From Clostridiales bacterium PH28_bin88 (GTDB lineage Bacteria; Bacillota; PH28-bin88): DNA of 64,000 nucleotides. Location: contig LAKY01000049.1 of NCBI GenBank assembly GCA_000987045.1, positions 37,735-101,734 on the forward strand, written 5' to 3'. The notes under the pieces were generated by a model. That model worked only from the letters and a program-made list of their open reading frames with translations. It was not told where the DNA came from and ran no database searches. This document shows, in pieces, positions 30,370 through 36,257 of this stretch (positions are counted from its first letter, which is position 1; every line of letters starts with the position of its first letter). A program made the translations under genes and the position numbers.

Positions 30370-31260
30370 TTATGGGAGCAGGTACCTGGCGGGGTCGAGG
30401 GGTTTACCGTCCTGGCGCAGCTCGAAGTGCAGGTGGGTGCCGTCGCGCTGTTCTTCCAGGCCGGGTTCGCCGACAAGGGCCATGGTTTCACCTGCCGGCA
30501 CCCGCTGGCCTTTACGGACCTGGACCTGGTCGACGTGGGCATAGCGGGTCTGCCAGCCGTCGCCGTGGTCAAGGGTGATCCGGTAGCGGAACAGGTCGCT
30601 GTACTCCACCGCCTCCACACGGCCGTCCAGCACCGCGTTTACAGGCGTTCCCTTGGGGGCGCCCAGGTCGATCCCCGCGTGCAGCCGGTAGTCCCCGTAC
30701 AGGTCAGAGAACTGGAAGCCGAAGCTCCGCAACAGGTCGCCTTCCACCGGGGCCAGCATGGCGCCGGGTTCGACCACCGGTCCGGTGGGTAGGGCCTCGG
30801 GGGCAGCAGGCTGGGCCGGGGCTGTTTCCGCCACAGGCGCCTGGTTAACCTCCACCGGTTTGTTCACGGAAGGGGCGCTGGGGGACCCTGAAGGTTTGGG
30901 ACCCACCGGCTGGGGCATTTCAGCCAGAGGCCTGGAAAAATCGTTTTGGGGTTGAGTCTCCACCGTGACGGTGGGGGTTACAGGCCTGCCGCGAAAGATG
31001 GCGTTATTGGTGATGAGCCATACATCCGCCGCCACCAGTACCAGGACCATCGCCACCCAGTACCACCGGCGGCGCAGTAAGGACGCGCCCCGCCGGAGAA
31101 AACTCCAGGCGGACTTAACCCCCGCCGCGACCACAGCCGGGCGAAAAGGGGTCTTGAAGGGTCTTGCCAGGGAATTAATCAGGGCTGAAGGTTTTAACAC
31201 TTTGCCAATCACCTCAGCCCTAGTATATCCCATATTTTTCCTGACTAAACCCGGCGTCAT
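30370..31260 (-). CDS. M23/LytM peptidase with N-terminal TM anchor (SpoIIQ-like by position)
   Basis: YRLHAGIDLGAPKGTPV and GTHLHFELR zinc-site motifs. It lies between spoIID and spoIIID, as spoIIQ does in clostridia. Confidence 0.65.
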   Translation of the reverse strand: MTPGLVRKNMGYTRAEVIGKVLKPSALINSLARPFKTPFRPAVVAAGVKSAWSFLRRGASLLRRRWYWVAMVLVLVAADVWLITNNAIFRGRPVTPTVTVETQPQNDFSRPLAEMPQPVGPKPSGSPSAPSVNKPVEVNQAPVAETAPAQPAAPEALPTGPVVEPGAMLAPVEGDLLRSFGFQFSDLYGDYRLHAGIDLGAPKGTPVNAVLDGRVEAVEYSDLFRYRITLDHGDGWQTRYAHVDQVQVRKGQRVPAGETMALVGEPGLEEQRDGTHLHFELRQDGKPLDPARYLLP

Positions 31261-32237
31261 TTGCCGTACTGGGTGATTTGAGTGCCTGTGTAGTAGTGGG
31301 CCAGGATCTGGCGGAAGTCCTTGCCCTCTTTGGCCATGCCGTTCGCCCCGTACTGGCTCATGCCTACCCCGTGGCCGTTGCCCACGGTGGTGAAAACCAG
31401 GCGGCCGTCCTTCACTTCCCAGGTAAGATTGGTGGAGTTTAAACCCAGGAGGCGGCGCAGGTCGTTACCGGTAAAGGGTTTACCGGTGATCCTTACCTCC
31501 TTGATCCTGCCGGTGGCGCTGTAGGATGTAACCTGGAGGGCGGGCGCCTTGGGGCCGGTGAGCTTGGCCACCGGCTGGGCGGCCAGGGAGGTCCCCAGCT
31601 TCCGGTCGACCTCTTCCAGGGTATAGGAGGTCACGTTCTGCAGCCTGGGTGCTTCCTTGTCCCACGGGGAATCTACGCTGCGCAGGTAGGGAATCTTATA
31701 CTTCCACACGTCCTCGGAGTTTTCGGTACGCCCGCCGGCGTTGGAATGGTATACCGGGTCGATGAGCTGGCCCTGGTAGCTGATCACCATGTTCCTGGTG
31801 GCAAATACCGCCATGTCCATCTTTTCCTTGTATCCGATATAGCGCCAGAGGCCCCAGCGCTTTTGCATCTCATCCGTCGAGACCCACCCCTGGCAGTGGG
31901 CGGGGTTGGTACAGACGTCGGCTTCCGGGTGATGCGGGTTGGGCGTCCCCAGCATCACCTTTTTCAGCACATAGGTGCGGGAGGCCACCGCCTGGGCCTT
32001 TAAGGCCTCCAGTTCAAATTCGGCAGGCATTTCCGCCGCCACAACTCCCACCAGGTACTGCTCCAGCGGCACTTCCCTGATCTGGCCGGTTTCGTGGAAC
32101 AGCACCTTGATGCTGGGACCCCCCAACTCTACCCGGACGCCGGTACCGGGCAGGCGGAGCAGGTGCACCACGGCGGCGGGAATGATGATGACCACCATGA
32201 AGACCAGAACGATAATCAGGGCCATGTAGCGTTTCAC
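31257..32237 (-). CDS. spoIID: Stage II sporulation lytic transglycosylase SpoIID
   Basis: ALKAQAVASRTYVL, VCTNPAHCQGW, HSNAGGRTENSEDVW, GHGVGMSQYGANGMA. Confidence 0.9.
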   Translation of the reverse strand: MKRYMALIIVLVFMVVIIIPAAVVHLLRLPGTGVRVELGGPSIKVLFHETGQIREVPLEQYLVGVVAAEMPAEFELEALKAQAVASRTYVLKKVMLGTPNPHHPEADVCTNPAHCQGWVSTDEMQKRWGLWRYIGYKEKMDMAVFATRNMVISYQGQLIDPVYHSNAGGRTENSEDVWKYKIPYLRSVDSPWDKEAPRLQNVTSYTLEEVDRKLGTSLAAQPVAKLTGPKAPALQVTSYSATGRIKEVRITGKPFTGNDLRRLLGLNSTNLTWEVKDGRLVFTTVGNGHGVGMSQYGANGMAKEGKDFRQILAHYYTGTQITQYGK

Positions 32238-32539
32238 GCCAGGGACCTCCTATTTGTACAGGCCTTTTGGGACATGTTTATGCGCCGGAGAGAGCAGTTA
32301 TGCTCTATTTCCAATTTTTAGGGGTGATAAAAAGTTCAGCAGGCAGGGATTGGTTTCCTGCCTGCTGCTTAAGTTTATTAACCAAACATCTGTTCCCGTT
32401 TTTTATTGTAGCCCGTAGCATATTATGGTAAGATGTAGGCAAGGCTTGCAGGTGCCCCGCAGTATAATGACAGCAACAAATAGCTCCTCCTCTCATCCCG
32501 TGGGTTGGCTGAGGGACAGGTAACGAGAGGAGGAAGCCT

Positions 32540-32638
32540 ATGGTAGAAGTGACGATTACAGTCAAAGTCGTTGCGTTGGCGATCGTAGTAGTACCTATGA
32601 TCACCGTCATCGCAGTAATGCGTCGTTACAAAAGATAA
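32540..32638 (+). CDS. 32-aa hydrophobic peptide with basic tail (candidate type-I toxin, locus L1)
   Basis: GAGAGGAGG-N6-ATG; MVEVTITVKVVALAIVVVPMITVIAVMRRYKR. An upstream CTCCTCCTCTC (32484-32494) can pair with the SD. Confidence 0.5.
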   Translation: MVEVTITVKVVALAIVVVPMITVIAVMRRYKR

Positions 32639-32728
32639 CGGGTATCGCGACATACCCGTCTAAGTAAAAAAAACACTCAAATAAACCTGCACCTCAGCCA
32701 ACCCTTTTCAGGGCCGGCATCCGGCTCT
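32628..32728 (-). ncRNA. Candidate cis-antisense small RNA (antitoxin-like) of L1
   Basis: Minus-strand promoter TTGACG-17-TAAAAT (32758-32763 / 32735-32740). Hairpin ACGGGTAT-N6-ATACCCGT (32638-32659) followed by TATCTTTTGT. It overlaps the 3-prime end and UTR of the peptide mRNA. Confidence 0.4.
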
Positions 32729-32741
32729 GTTTTTATTTTAC
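32711..32741 (+). terminator. Terminator of the L1 peptide mRNA
   Basis: GGCCGG-cat-CCGGC stem followed by TGTTTTTATTTT. Confidence 0.55.
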
Positions 32742-32983
32742 CCTTATTATTCCTCTTCGTCAATATTCCAAAACTCCGGCTGGACGCATATACACTCACA
32801 ATCTATGCGTGTCTTATAACGTGCCGAACTTTTGTTCGCTTTCATCTTGTCCACGATTGCGTACTATAGTAAAATAAAGGCAGGGCCTGCAGGTGCCCCG
32901 CAGCATAGCTACATCAAAAGAAAAACCCTCCTCTCTATCATGGGTTGGCTGAGTGAACAGCAGGTAACGAGAGGAGGGGGCGG

Positions 32984-33078
32984 ATGATCGAAGTAACCAT
33001 CACCGTTAAACTGGTTGCGCTGTAGTCATAGTACCTATGATTGCCGTTGTCAGAACCGTTAATCGCAAAAAGAAGTAG
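32984..33078 (+). pseudogene. Disrupted paralogue of the L1 peptide (locus L2)
   Basis: MIEVTITVKLVAL, then TAG. The -1 frame continues VVIVPMIAVVRTVNRKKK, consistent with a 1-nt deletion relative to L1. Confidence 0.5.
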
Positions 33079-33174
33079 CGGGTATGTTGCCGTATGCATA
33101 CCCGCCAAACCCAAGATAATACCCTAAAATAAACCTGCACCTCAGCCAACCCCTTATGGATCAGCTTTAGTGTC
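33066..33174 (-). ncRNA. Candidate cis-antisense small RNA of L2
   Basis: Promoter TTGACG-17-TACAAT (33204-33209 / 33181-33186). Hairpin GCGGGTATG...CATACCCGC (33078-33104) followed by TACTTCTTTTTG. The stem changes relative to L1 are compensatory. Confidence 0.4.
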
Positions 33175-33228
33175 ATTATTATTGTAACCATATTATTCCC
33201 ATTCGTCAACCAGATCAACAAATATGGC

Positions 33229-34512
33229 TCAGTCGCACAGGCGGCATTCTTCGCCGTCCCGCTCCTCGCGGGTGATGTCGGCGCCGACGGCCTGCAGCTT
33301 TTGCACCATGTTCTCGTAGCCCCGGTCGATGTGCTGCACCGCGGCGATCTCGGTCTCCCCGTCGGCCATCAGTCCGGCCACCACCAGGGCCGCCCCGGCC
33401 CGCAAATCGGTGGCCTTTACCTTCGCCCCGGTGAGCCGCGGCACCCCTTTCACCACCGCGCTGTGGCCCTCGATGATGATGCTGGCCCCCATGCGTTTCA
33501 GTTCGTTGACGTGCATAAACCGGTTTTCAAACACCGTTTCGGTGACCACGCTGGTTCCCTGGGCACCGGTCATCAGGGCCATTGTCTGGGCCTGCATGTC
33601 GGTGGGGAAACCGGGGTAGGGGAGGGTCTTGATGTCTACCGCGCACAGCGGCCGGGAACTCCTCACCCGGATGCCGGAACCCTCTTCCTTTACCTGCACT
33701 CCCGCCTCGGCCAGCTTGGCCACCACCGGCTTCAGGTGGTCGGTGATGACGTTGTCCACCAGCACGTCCCCGCCGGTGGCGGCAGCCATCACCATGTAGG
33801 TACCCGCCTCAATGCGGTCGGGGATCACGCCGTGGGTAACCCCCCGCATGTGTTTAACACCTTCGATTTTGATGATCTTGGTACCGGCGCCCATCACCCG
33901 CGCGCCCATGCTGCATAAAAAGTTGGCCAGGTCGACGATTTCCGGTTCCTCGGCGGCGTTTTCAATCACCGTGACACCTTTAGCCAGGGCGGCGGCCATC
34001 ATGATATTCTCGGTGGCACCCACACTGGGGAAGTCCAGGTAAACCCGGGCCCCGACCAGTTCAGGCGCCGTGGCTTCGATGCTGCCGTGGCCGATGCTGA
34101 TGCTTGCCCCCAGGGCGGCAAACCCTTTTAGATGGAGGTCGATCGGCCGGGTGCCAATAGCACAGCCTCCGGGCAGGGACATGCGCGCCCTTCCCACCCG
34201 GGCCAGCAGCGGTCCCATGACAAGGAAGGAAGCCCGCATGCGGCGCACGTACTCGTAGGGGGCTTCCACGCTGGTGATCTCGCTGCAGTCTATCTCCATC
34301 TCCTGGGGGCCTTCGGGCACAATGCGGCCCCCCAGGAAGCCGAGCACTTCCGACATGGTTGTCACGTCCGCCAGGCGAGGAATGTCCATCAGCCGGCAGG
34401 GACCTTCGGCCAGGAGGGAGGCGGCCATAATGGGCAGCACGGCGTTCTTGGCGCCGCTGACCGTGATGGTACCCTTTAAGGGGTTGCCGCCGTTAATGAT
34501 GATTTTTTCCAA
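33229..34512 (-). CDS. murA: UDP-N-acetylglucosamine 1-carboxyvinyltransferase
   Basis: [61 protein letters not shown] start with a GGGAGG RBS. Confidence 0.95.
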
Positions 34513-35587: not shown

Positions 35588-35983
35588 CTACTTTAAAGGG
35601 TTTACCACAAGCAAATTGGGAATGTATTTGAAGTGTTTTTCATTTCGCGTAAGCAGGACCGCATCTGATCGAATGGCTGTGGCCGCAATGAGGGCATCCA
35701 CAGGCTCCAGGCCGTGAGACTTCTGGTACATGGCAATAAGCTTTCCGGCTGTTTGGGCGATAAATAAGTCTACCGGTACTATCACGTGAAATATTTCTAA
35801 CAGACGAGAAATCTTTTCTATGTTTTCAGGGCCAAGCTTTGGGGCGGCATATAGCTCCATCACCGTTAACACACTTATTGCGCCCTCCATGTTACCATCC
35901 TCTATACCGGCAAGGTAACGGGATGCCTCTGGAATTCCTCTTAAGTGATCAATAAGAATGTTTGTGTCAACTAAAATCTTCAA
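35588..35983 (-). CDS. vapC: VapC-type PIN-domain toxin
   Basis: MKILVDTNILIDHLRG..., PVDALIAATA, LLTRNEKHF. Confidence 0.85.
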   Translation of the reverse strand: MKILVDTNILIDHLRGIPEASRYLAGIEDGNMEGAISVLTVMELYAAPKLGPENIEKISRLLEIFHVIVPVDLFIAQTAGKLIAMYQKSHGLEPVDALIAATAIRSDAVLLTRNEKHFKYIPNLLVVNPLK

Positions 35984-36257
35984 GTTCCTCTAACCTCCTT
36001 CCGGAGGCTTTCCGCAACTCGTCCACATAATCAGGATCAATGTCGTCGTTTTTCCAAAGCCCCGCGGTTTCCGCAACAATGCTACCGCCCTTTTTGTTGG
36101 ACCTGAGGGATTTCGGCCGCAAGCCGATAACCAGTTTTTGGTCATCAACGAATTCAACGTAAAGTTCGTCTCCCTGCTTGATATTAAGTTTTTCTCTGAT
36201 ACTTTTAGGCAGGGTTACCTGCCCCTTACTGGTAACTTTAATCCCCACTCTGGTCAT
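35967..36257 (-). CDS. vapB: AbrB/SpoVT-fold antitoxin (VapB)
   Basis: KVTSKGQVTLPKSIREKLNIKQGDELYV. It overlaps the vapC start. Confidence 0.8.
   Translation of the reverse strand: MTRVGIKVTSKGQVTLPKSIREKLNIKQGDELYVEFVDDQKLVIGLRPKSLRSNKKGGSIVAETAGLWKNDDIDPDYVDELRKASGRRLEELEDFS

What the first reader, a model, noticed from the sequence alone, without database searches (positions are those of the whole stretch)
32406..33209. Two tandem type-I toxin-antitoxin-like modules in the spoIID-murA spacer
The 1-kb spacer contains two paralogous units.

Unit L1 has these parts:
- a promoter (TTGTAG-17-TAAGAT, 32406-32434) and a 5-prime UTR of about 100 nt;
- CTCCTCCTCTC (32484-32494), which can pair with the SD GAGAGGAGG (32525-32533);
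- a 32-aa ORF (MVEVTITVKVVALAIVVVPMITVIAVMRRYKR), a single TM helix with a basic tail;
- a 13-nt 5-prime UTR box GGGTTGGCTGAGG (32502-32514), exactly complementary to a 3-prime UTR box CCTCAGCCAACCC (32692-32704);
- on the opposite strand, a good promoter (TTGACG-17-TAAAAT) and a hairpin plus T-tract that would give an antisense RNA of about 100 nt overlapping the ORF 3-prime end and UTR.

Unit L2 keeps the UTR boxes and a stronger sense promoter (TTGTCC-17-TAAAAT, 32847-32875). It also keeps the antisense promoter (TTGACG-17-TACAAT) and the antisense terminator with compensatory stem changes. Its peptide ORF is broken by a 1-nt deletion.

Sequestered SD, 5-prime/3-prime fold-back and a convergent sRNA are hallmarks of hok/Sok-, AapA/IsoA- and TxpA/RatA-type systems. 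I do not recognise the peptide.
Basis: partly seen in the sequence, partly recalled or inferred. Interest (0 to 1): 0.75.

Follow-up and report, generated by a model that had tools for sequence, protein, structure and literature searches.

The report
Tandem type I toxin-antitoxin-like modules

Summary
The window comes from the uncultured Clostridiales bacterium PH28_bin88.

I found two more copies of the module in a close relative (97% SpoIID identity). One of them carries an intact 31-aa ORF at the position where the window's L2 is frameshifted.

Comparing the four copies shows four things:
- The ORF is under purifying selection. pN/pS is 0.08-0.24 in the first 13 codons, with synonymous sites near saturation.
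- The anti-SD:SD stem, the 5' box:3' box helix and the antisense terminator each carry a compensatory change.
- Both hexamers of the antisense promoter are conserved.
- Copy number and location differ between near-identical genomes.

Folding predicts that the SD is fully buried in nascent, 3'-truncated or antisense-blocked mRNA. It becomes partly accessible only when the 3' box pairs with the 5' box. This is the logic shown experimentally for B. subtilis bsrG/SR4, and the opposite of hok and AapA1.

No peptide or RNA homologue turned up in Pfam, NCBIfam, Rfam, plasmids, phages, or large protein and contig collections.

Verdict: a credible new family of a known kind. Transcription and toxicity are untested.

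The parts
32406..32434 (+). L1 sense (toxin mRNA) promoter, TTGTAG-17-TAAGAT
   Evidence: Read directly. The promoter stretch is near-identical in the 97% relative, with both hexamers unchanged. Homologous promoters occur in L2 and M3. The -35 hexamer is weak.
32441..32738 (+). Predicted L1 toxin mRNA, about 298 nt. The ends are inferred from the promoter and the terminator.
   Evidence: MFE -101.1 kcal/mol, z = -4.16, and 0 of 200 shuffles fold as well.
32485..32494 (+). L1 anti-SD, TCCTCCTCTC
   Evidence: Ten perfect pairs with 32525-32534 (I9); duplex -21.1 kcal/mol. The tenth pair is U-A here and C-G in L2 and M3.
32502..32521 (+). L1 5' box (13-nt core at 32502-32514, plus CAGGT). It lies inside the loop of the SD hairpin.
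   Evidence: I1. Duplex with the 3' box is -38.6 kcal/mol.
32525..32534 (+). L1 Shine-Dalgarno region, GAGAGGAGGA, with 6 nt between GGAGG and the ATG
32540..32638 (+). L1 ORF of 32 aa, MVEVTITVKVVALAIVVVPMITVIAVMRRYKR: a hydrophobic core followed by a basic tail
   Evidence: Purifying selection across four copies.
32637..32660 (-). L1 post-stop hairpin, which serves as the antisense RNA terminator. Its T-tract is the complement of the Lys/Arg codons of the peptide tail.
   Evidence: The first stem pair includes the third base of the stop codon and covaries: UAA..U in two copies, UAG..C in the other two.
32685..32704 (+). L1 3' box, ACCTGCACCTCAGCCAACCC. It sits within a 26-nt block that is identical in L1 and L2.
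   Evidence: D3, I1.
32709..32739 (+). L1 sense terminator: 9-bp stem followed by TTTTTATTTT
32735..32763 (-). L1 antisense (antitoxin) promoter, TTGACG-17-TAAAAT, 10 of 12 matches
   Evidence: The -35 hexamer is invariant in all four copies.
32630..32728 (-). Predicted L1 antisense RNA, about 99 nt. It overlaps the last 9 nt of the ORF and the 3' UTR and contains a copy of the 5' box sequence.
   Evidence: MFE -38 kcal/mol, z = -3.92. The consensus fold of four copies has a terminator covariation and a 5' hairpin with G-U pairs.
32847..32875 (+). L2 sense promoter, TTGTCC-17-TAAAAT, 9 of 12 matches
32926..32935 (+). L2 anti-SD, CCCTCCTCTC
   Evidence: I10.
32942..32953 (+). L2 5' box, GGGTTGGCTGAG. 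The thirteenth base is T, so the helix is 12 bp.
   Evidence: I3, I5.
32969..32978 (+). L2 Shine-Dalgarno region, GAGAGGAGGG
   Evidence: I10.
32984..33078 (+). L2 ORF remnant. A 1-nt deletion after codon 13 gives TAG at 33023-33025. The downstream frame still reads VIVPMIAVVRTVNRKKK*.
   Evidence: The copy at the same position in the relative is intact.
33078..33105 (-). L2 post-stop hairpin, the antisense terminator, followed by CTTCTTTTTG on the minus strand
33133..33152 (+). L2 3' box
   Evidence: I2, I3.
33181..33209 (-). L2 antisense promoter, TTGACG-17-TACAAT, 10 of 12 matches
33066..33174 (-). Predicted L2 antisense RNA, about 109 nt. It has a 29-nt perfect match to the 3' UTR of the L1 mRNA.

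Best explanation
Each unit is a type I toxin-antitoxin-like module of a previously undescribed family.

Components:
- A weak promoter drives an mRNA of about 300 nt for a 31-32-aa hydrophobic peptide with a basic C-terminal tail. This peptide is the presumed membrane toxin.
- A strong convergent promoter drives a cis-antisense RNA of about 100 nt. It is fully complementary to the 3' UTR and the last codons. This RNA is the presumed antitoxin.

Proposed control, by three RNA states:
1. While the mRNA is being made, a 10-11-bp GC-rich anti-SD:SD hairpin buries the ribosome-binding site.
2. Once the 3' box is transcribed, it can pair with the 5' box (12-13 bp plus 5 bp). The 5' box lies in the loop of the SD hairpin. 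In nested-structure models this pairing excludes the SD hairpin, so it is the only state with an accessible SD.
3. The antisense RNA carries the same sequence as the 5' box. It captures the 3' box, the SD hairpin re-forms, and the long duplex is a likely RNase III substrate.

L1 is intact. L2 has lost its ORF to a frameshift but keeps its promoters, boxes and antisense gene. It is therefore a decaying copy that may still supply antisense RNA able to pair with L1 mRNA.

Shown here: the sequence anatomy, coding selection, covariation and the thermodynamic predictions.
Inferred: transcription of both strands, toxicity, neutralisation by the antisense RNA, and RNase III involvement.
For: Coding:
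- In four copies, differences concentrate at codon positions 3 and 1.
- pN/pS is 0.23-0.60 overall and 0.08-0.24 in codons 1-13, with pS of 0.30-0.86.
- The hydrophobic core, the central Pro and the basic tail are kept.

RNA structure:
- The tenth pair of the anti-SD:SD stem changes from U-A to C-G.
- In copy M3 the 5' box is GGGTGGCTGAGG and the 3' box is CCTCAGCCACCC. This is a matched change on both strands that keeps a perfect 12-bp helix.
- Non-cognate box combinations are 3-7 kcal/mol weaker than cognate ones.
- The terminator pair changes from A-U to G-C in 2 versus 2 copies.

Antisense gene:
- The promoter matches 10 of 12 positions in both units, and its -35 hexamer is invariant in four copies.
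- The antisense 5' hairpin uses G-U pairs, which would be A-C mismatches on the sense strand.

Switch:
- In L1, L2 and M3 the SD hairpin is the MFE structure of every 5' fragment and of 3'-blocked mRNA.
- The full-length MFE has the box helix instead, and the two states lie within 0.3-3.1 kcal/mol of each other.
- P(GGAGG unpaired) is 0.17-0.40 for full-length mRNA. It is 0.00 when the 3' UTR is blocked, removed or scrambled.

Genetics:
- The modules are multi-copy and differ in place and number between genomes that share 97% SpoIID identity.
- One copy is a recombinant with its crossover at the 3' box.

Precedent:
- In bsrG/SR4, a 5'-3' helix in the free toxin mRNA is broken when the antitoxin binds the 3' end. 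The SD stem then grows from 4 to 8 bp, and RNase III degrades the duplex (PMC3834814).
- Tandem repeats and hydrophobic small ORFs are recognised marks of type I loci (PMC8594479).
Against: - There is no expression, toxicity or rescue data.
- No sequence homology to any known toxin or antitoxin RNA family was found.
- The family was found in only two closely related genomes, so the covariation rests on 3-4 paralogues and single events.
- The sense promoter has a poor -35 hexamer.
- L2, M3 and M4 lack a clear sense terminator.
- RNAfold cannot model pseudoknots, so the SD hairpin and the box helix might coexist.
- RNAalifold on the MAFFT alignment preferred a different long-range helix, between the extreme 5' end and the 3' block, together with the SD hairpin. 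That alignment misplaces the M3 5' box.
- The L2 frameshift could be a MAG assembly error.
Confidence: 0.62

Rival explanations
1. The same type I module, but with hok/AapA1-type logic. The 5'-3' pairing coexists with the SD hairpin as a pseudoknot, or the 3' block pairs with the extreme 5' end. Either way the full-length mRNA is locked in a stable, inert form. Nucleolytic processing then creates the translatable, antisense-sensitive species.
For: - The RNAalifold consensus of three mRNAs pairs the extreme 5' end (columns 4-16) with the 3' block (columns 263-273) while keeping the anti-SD:SD hairpin.
- The forced SD-hairpin structure of L1 is only 1 kcal/mol above the MFE and contains that 5'-end:3'-block helix.
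- In silico removal of 10-40 nt from the 5' end raises P(SD unpaired) in L1 from 0.40 to 0.58.
- Activation by 5' or 3' processing is documented for dinQ, hok and aapA1 (PMC5066626, PMC6733600; listed).
Against: - 3' truncation gives P(SD unpaired) = 0.00 in all three modules, so hok-like 3' trimming would silence the mRNA, not activate it.
- The box5:box3 helix is much stronger (-36 to -39 kcal/mol) than the interrupted 11-bp helix between the 5' end and the 3' block. That weaker helix shows no compensatory change, only one U-A to U-G change and one broken pair.
- The alignment misplaces the M3 5' box, which biases the consensus against the box helix.
Confidence: 0.2
2. This is a harmless small membrane protein gene under cis-antisense control, not a toxin-antitoxin pair. 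The peptide might, for example, be a regulatory or accessory subunit of a membrane complex.
For: - Toxicity is untested.
- Many 30-aa single-pass peptides are not toxic (own knowledge).
- No match was found to any toxin family in Pfam, NCBIfam or PADLOC.
- All three genomic sites lie within the spoIID-spoIIID sporulation gene neighbourhood.
Against: - There is no partner gene in an operon. The module stands alone, convergent with murA and divergent from spoIID.
- Four features fit selfish TA loci better than a housekeeping subunit: multiple diverged copies, presence/absence differences between 97%-identical genomes, a pseudogenised copy, and two layers of translational repression combined with a strong antisense promoter.
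- The family is absent from other Bacillota.
Confidence: 0.13
3. This is a non-coding intergenic repeat. Its hairpins merely terminate murA and neighbouring genes, and the ORF, promoters and boxes are incidental.
For: - No terminator-like site was found on the minus strand between the murA stop and the L2 hairpin. The L2 antisense terminator is therefore the first candidate terminator for murA.
- M3 sits in the same way downstream of a 54-aa ORF.
Against: - The codon-position pattern and low pN/pS of the ORF.
- A perfect SD at the correct spacing.
- 12-13-nt complementary boxes 170-190 nt apart, kept by matched changes.
- A conserved near-consensus antisense promoter.

None of these is needed for a terminator repeat.
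Confidence: 0.03

Closest known systems
bsrG/SR4 (BsrE-G-H group) of Bacillus subtilis
   Same: - A toxin mRNA of about 295 nt for a small hydrophobic peptide with a Lys-rich end.
- A convergent antisense RNA complementary to the 3' end of the mRNA, from a promoter stronger than the toxin promoter.
- A long-range 5'-3' helix in the free mRNA.
- Antitoxin binding at the 3' end frees the 5' strand and increases SD sequestration, and RNase III degrades the duplex (PMC3834814).

The predicted behaviour here follows the same scheme.
   Different: - No peptide or RNA sequence similarity: no Rfam hit at E <= 10 in the region and none at gathering score in the whole window, and no Pfam or NCBIfam hit.
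- The antisense RNA is about 100 nt here against about 180 nt for SR4.
- The peptide is 31-32 aa here against 38 aa.
- Here the 5' partner of the long-range helix lies in the loop of a 10-bp anti-SD:SD hairpin, so the predicted contrast is all-or-none rather than 4 versus 8 bp.
- Nothing here has been tested experimentally.
TxpA/RatA and related Gram-positive 3'-overlapping type I systems (YonT, SprG/SprF)
   Same: [quoted passage not shown] The toxin is a single-pass hydrophobic peptide.
   Different: No sequence homology. Those systems are described mainly as degradation-driven. Here a conserved SD hairpin and a 5'-3' helix add translational control.
hok/Sok
   Same: A small membrane peptide; a highly structured mRNA with a 5'-3' fold-back; an SD that is hidden in nascent transcripts.
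   Different: - Sok lies 5' of the ORF and acts through a leader ORF, mok. Here the antisense RNA is at the 3' end and there is no leader ORF inside the predicted transcript.
- In hok, removing the 3' fold-back element activates translation. Here removing it is predicted to silence translation.
- No HOK_GEF Pfam match.
AapA1/IsoA1 of Helicobacter pylori
   Same: A long-distance 5'-3' interaction and successive SD-sequestering structures in a toxin mRNA for a peptide of about 30 aa (PMC6733600, listed).
   Different: IsoA overlaps the 5' UTR and the start of the ORF, and 3' trimming activates the mRNA. Here the geometry and the predicted effect of truncation are both the opposite.
dinQ/AgrB (mutually exclusive mRNA structures)
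   Same: Two alternative, mutually exclusive mRNA folds decide whether the SD is accessible (PMC5066626, listed).
   Different: AgrB is encoded upstream and does not overlap the mRNA. It is a Gram-negative system, and its activation is by 5' processing.

Membership tests
Type I toxin-antitoxin system (the class) | A small ORF (under about 60 aa) encoding a hydrophobic, membrane-directed peptide | tested here: met
   A 31-32-aa ORF with an 18-23-residue hydrophobic stretch and a basic tail. It is under purifying selection.
Type I toxin-antitoxin system (the class) | An antisense RNA gene whose product base-pairs with the toxin mRNA | tested here: inconclusive
   A conserved convergent promoter (10 of 12 matches) and a terminator define an overlapping RNA of about 100 nt in all four copies. 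Transcription has not been shown.
Type I toxin-antitoxin system (the class) | The peptide is toxic when over-expressed, and the antisense RNA neutralises it | not testable with these tools
   Needs expression experiments.
Type I toxin-antitoxin system (the class) | The toxin mRNA is structured so that translation is repressed during and after transcription | tested here: met
   The anti-SD:SD hairpin is the MFE structure of all 5' fragments in three modules, and it carries a compensatory change. This is a prediction only.
BsrG/SR4 (BsrE-G-H) family | Sequence homology of the toxin peptide or antitoxin RNA | tested here: not met
   No Rfam hit at E <= 10 in 32000-33500. No Pfam or NCBIfam hit at E <= 10.
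BsrG/SR4 (BsrE-G-H) family | A 3'-overlapping antisense RNA; a 5'-3' helix in the free mRNA; antitoxin binding increases SD sequestration | tested here: met
   Geometry. Helix. P(SD unpaired) falls from 0.17-0.40 to 0.00 when the 3' UTR is blocked. In silico only.
TxpA/RatA | Homology to TxpA or RatA | tested here: not met
   No Rfam, Pfam or NCBIfam match.
Hok/Sok | A Hok/Gef family peptide, an antisense RNA 5' of the ORF, and an overlapping leader ORF (mok) | tested here: not met
   No PF01848 match. The antisense RNA is at the 3' end. The only upstream ORF (32425-32523) starts before the predicted transcription start and is not conserved.
AapA/IsoA | The antisense RNA overlaps the 5' UTR and ORF start; the 5'-3' interaction locks the mRNA until 3' trimming | tested here: not met
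   The antisense RNA overlaps the 3' UTR. In silico 3' truncation buries the SD completely.
Fst/RNAII (par) | An Fst-type peptide, and direct repeats at the 5' ends of both RNAs that provide the interaction region outside the overlap | tested here: not met
   No PF13955 match. The boxes form an inverted repeat, not a direct repeat, so the antisense RNA carries the same sequence as the 5' box rather than its complement.

The most novel reading that the evidence does not exclude
The 3' UTR box acts as an obligatory activator, an anti-anti-SD. Only completed, undegraded transcripts can ever expose the ribosome-binding site. The antitoxin RNA works by mimicking the 5' box and competing with it for the 3' box. 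The frameshifted L2 is retained as a toxin-less antitoxin gene that protects against L1 in trans through a 29-nt perfect match, and that also terminates murA transcription.
Probability: 0.3. Interest if true: 0.5.

Novelty: new member of a known kind. Interest (0 to 1): 0.4.

Why it matters
It would add a type I toxin-antitoxin family from an uncultured, hydrocarbon-enrichment-associated Clostridia lineage where none is described. This class is badly under-annotated because the genes are tiny and evolve fast.

The four copies form a compact natural experiment. They contain matched changes in three helices, a recombinant copy and a fresh pseudogene.

The module also gives a clean, testable example of control through the 3' UTR. 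The same 13 nt decide between a translatable fold and a silent fold, and the antitoxin acts at a distance from the ribosome-binding site. So far this has been shown mainly for bsrG/SR4.

The practical consequence is limited: annotation of small ORFs and antisense RNAs in such genomes, and a possible compact RNA switch for synthetic biology.

Tried and rejected
Searches that found nothing related:
- Rfam on the region at E <= 10 gave only chance-level hits far below gathering scores. Rfam on the whole window at gathering score gave none.
- phmmer of the peptide against 1.84 billion representatives gave 0 hits at E <= 0.001. This negative is weak, because the two real relatives in the underlying collection were not reported either.
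- A profile padded to 40 aa with the in-frame SD translation found only those two relatives, P0243 and P0244, among 5.8 billion clusters. Both are singleton clusters.
- Exact look-ups of the window's MurA and of the peptide found nothing on record.
- Viral contigs with two patterns gave 0 hits. A third pattern gave 2 chance hits.
- The metagenome-contig scan with an SD-plus-peptide pattern gave 10 hits, all unrelated longer ORFs or chance matches.
- tblastn against plasmids and phages, and blastn against plasmids, gave no match. The low-complexity filter may hide hydrophobic peptides.
- Pfam, NCBIfam and PADLOC gave nothing meaningful.
- No LysR remnant was found in the spacer.

Errors on my side:
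- The genome-contig scan used ATGRTNGARGTNACNATHACNGTNAAR. The pattern was too strict: the relatives later showed T-I-K instead of T-V-K.
- One search used wrong coordinates for two antisense RNAs. It was redone.

Readings rejected:
- Riboswitch or leader: no family match, and the flanking genes are on the other strand.
- Membership of hok/Sok, AapA/IsoA or Fst: their defining features were not met.
Full report
**1. Observation**

The 991-bp spacer between spoIID (31257-32237, minus strand) and murA (33229-34512, minus strand) has 46% G+C, against 57% for the window. It contains two paralogous units of about 370 bp (blastn E = 2e-34; alignment).

- both sense promoters;
- both antisense promoters, each matching 10 of 12 consensus positions;
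- the anti-SD:SD complements, ten perfect pairs in each unit;
- the 13-nt 5' box and its exact complement in the 3' UTR, extendable to 20 nt at 90%;
- the sense terminator of L1;
- the minus-strand hairpin plus T-tract just after the stop codon;
- the 1-nt deletion that gives L2 a stop after codon 13.

The box complementarity is not chance. The longest perfect 5'UTR:3'UTR complement is 13, 12 and 12 nt in three modules. Shuffles give a mean of about 6.5 and a maximum of 10-11, and 0 of 1000 reach the observed value.

**2. Source and relatives**

MurA is 100% identical to KKM10767.1 of Clostridiales bacterium PH28_bin88, an uncultured MAG. Papers on hydrocarbon-degrading enrichments mention this genome.

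The nearest SpoIID is 97% identical and comes from a Logan assembly of SRR10029121. The next ones are only 62% identical or less.

In those 62%-level relatives a LysR gene occupies the murA-spoIID spacer. No LysR remnant is left in the window.

The 97% relative supplied the decisive comparative material:
- Contig L021 keeps the L1 promoter and the first nucleotides of the mRNA, then breaks off.
- Contig L025 carries the murA-proximal module, which I call M4. It has an intact 31-aa ORF, MVEVTITIKLVALVIIVPMIALAAATRRTKR.
- L021 also carries a complete third module, M3, at another site. It lies just after the M23-peptidase gene and encodes MIEVTITIKLVVLALILPIIAIVGTFSRKKK.
- M4 resembles L1 from the 5' box through the post-stop hairpin (32/34, 75/99 and 34/39 identical positions). 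It resembles L2 in the 3' flank (51/60 against 36/61). The switch coincides with the 3' box.

The modules therefore recombine, and they differ in number and place between near-identical genomes.

**3. The ORF is a real coding sequence**

Across the four copies, differences fall mainly on codon positions 3 and 1. For example, the counts at positions 1, 2 and 3 are 2, 0 and 9 for L2 versus M4 in the first 13 codons.

pN/pS is 0.23-0.60 over the whole ORF and 0.08-0.24 in codons 1-13. Synonymous sites are close to saturation in most pairs (pS 0.30-0.86).

The invariant positions are M1, E3, V4, T5, I6, T7, K9, V11, L13, a central Pro and basic residues near the end. The peptide is a single hydrophobic stretch followed by a basic tail.

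**4. The RNA elements are under selection**

- **Anti-SD:SD stem.** It has 10-11 bp and a stability of -21 to -24 kcal/mol. The tenth pair is U-A in L1 and C-G in L2 and M3.
- **Box helix.** M3 has GGGTGGCTGAGG and CCTCAGCCACCC. This matched change on both strands keeps a perfect 12-bp helix. Cognate helices reach -36 to -39 kcal/mol. Swapped M3/L1 partners are 3-7 kcal/mol weaker.
- **Post-stop hairpin.** Its first pair includes the third base of the stop codon. It reads UAA...U in L1 and M4, and UAG...C in L2 and M3.
- **Terminator T-tract.** The T-tract of this minus-strand terminator is the complement of the Lys/Arg codons of the peptide tail.
- **Antisense promoter.** The -35 hexamer is invariant in four copies and the -10 hexamer is TAAAAT or TACAAT.
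- **Antisense 5' hairpin.** The consensus fold of the antisense RNA has a 5' hairpin with G-U pairs. These would be A-C mismatches on the sense strand, a small strand-specific signal.
- **Invariant UTR blocks.** Synonymous sites in the ORF have largely turned over, yet the UTR blocks have not. CAGGTAACGAGAGGAGG and the 26-nt AAATAAACCTGCACCTCAGCCAACCC are identical in L1 and L2.

**5. Predicted mechanism**

The 5' box lies inside the loop of the anti-SD:SD hairpin. In nested structures the box helix and the SD hairpin therefore exclude each other.

In L1, L2 and M3:
- every 5' fragment, and the mRNA with its 3' UTR blocked, folds into the SD hairpin;
- the full-length MFE has the box helix with the SD released;
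- the two states differ by only 0.3-3.1 kcal/mol.

The ensemble figures agree:

| State of the mRNA | P(box helix) | P(GGAGG unpaired) |
|---|---|---|
| Full length | 0.69-1.00 | 0.17-0.40 |
| 3' UTR blocked (mimics antisense binding) | n/a | 0.00 |
| 3' UTR removed | n/a | 0.00 |
| 3' box scrambled | n/a | 0.00 |

My reading follows from this. The 3' box is needed for any translation. The antisense RNA necessarily carries the 5' box sequence, so it competes for the 3' box. The mRNA then returns to the silent fold, and the long duplex that forms is a likely RNase III substrate.

This scheme was demonstrated for B. subtilis bsrG/SR4 (PMC3834814). There, helix P1 joins 5' nt 1-35 to 3' nt 232-262. 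SR4 binds the 3' end, the 5' strand is released, and the SD stem grows from 4 to 8 bp.

It is the opposite of hok and AapA1, where removing the 3' element activates the mRNA.

Caveats:
- RNAfold ignores pseudoknots.
- RNAalifold on a MAFFT alignment that misplaces the M3 box preferred a helix between the extreme 5' end and the 3' block, together with the SD hairpin. That interrupted 11-bp helix has no compensatory support.
- It could still be a real locked state. I keep this as the main rival.

**6. L2**

L2's ORF is broken, but its promoters, SD hairpin, boxes and antisense gene are intact. Its antisense RNA has a 29-nt perfect match to the L1 mRNA.

It may therefore be a decaying copy that still supplies antitoxin.

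No other terminator-like site on the minus strand follows the murA stop before the L2 hairpin. The L2 hairpin may therefore also terminate murA transcripts.

An assembly error at the frameshift cannot be excluded.

**7. Comparison with known families**

The geometry matches the Gram-positive type I families TxpA/RatA, BsrE-G-H, YonT and SprG. In these the antisense RNA lies on the 3' side, overlaps the mRNA and reaches the ORF, as summarised in T1TAdb (PMC8594479).

Membership of any named family fails on sequence:
- no Rfam match;
- no Pfam, NCBIfam or PADLOC match.

The hok/Sok, AapA/IsoA and Fst/RNAII arrangements are not met. See the membership table.

No further members were found in any of the following:
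- 5.8 billion protein clusters;
- plasmids and phages;
- viral contigs;
- one metagenome scan;
- one genome scan, whose pattern was too strict.

**8. Verdict**

The type I TA-like interpretation is supported as far as sequence analysis can go.

It is best described as a new, narrowly distributed family of a known kind, working like bsrG/SR4. Type I loci are common and new families are predicted regularly, so the surprise is modest.

Its value lies in the unusually clear compensatory evidence and in a sharply testable 3'-UTR switch. Transcription, toxicity and rescue all remain to be shown.

Noticed in passing
window 32337-32367: A perfect hairpin (11-bp arms, I7; a 13-pair stem) sits between the L1 promoter and spoIID. 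It is followed by T-rich runs on both strands. It is 100% conserved in the 97% relative while its flanks vary. It is probably a bidirectional terminator that insulates spoIID from read-through.
   Followed up: partly
window 33105-33229, minus strand: murA has no terminator-like site of its own. The first hairpin plus T-tract downstream of its stop codon on the minus strand is the L2 antisense terminator. murA read-through would therefore contain the L2 antisense RNA sequence.
   Followed up: partly
L021 2155-2319 (+) and 2325-2700 (-): In the 97% relative, a 54-aa ORF with no Pfam match and a third complete module follow the M23-peptidase gene. In the window, spoIIID follows that gene directly. 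This is a local rearrangement or insertion between near-identical genomes.
   Followed up: partly
window 35588-36257, minus strand: A type II toxin-antitoxin pair lies about 2.4 kb from the modules: a PIN-domain (VapC-like) protein of 131 aa and a MazE/AbrB-type antitoxin of 96 aa with overlapping genes. The relative has the PIN gene at the same place.
   Followed up: partly
L022-L024 (relatives with 61-62% SpoIID identity): A LysR-family regulator gene occupies the murA-spoIID spacer in the next-closest genomes. No trace of it remains in the window.
   Followed up: yes
L021 position 1 and L025 position 3352: Both Logan contigs of the relative end inside the module, one in the 5' hairpin and one in the 5' box. 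This is as expected if the repeated modules break short-read assembly. Such loci are therefore likely to be under-represented in metagenome assemblies.
   Followed up: no
L001, L003-L020 (Bacteroidales-type genomes): The degenerate pattern for M[VI]EVTITVK hits what looks like one recurring conserved locus in 19 Bacteroidales-type genomes, in a reading frame that lacks an SD and does not give a small peptide. The twentieth hit, L002, is archaeal. This is an off-target trap for peptide-pattern scans and is unrelated to the finding.
   Followed up: yes
window 1-64000: No Rfam family reaches its gathering score anywhere in the 64-kb window, on either strand.
   Followed up: no
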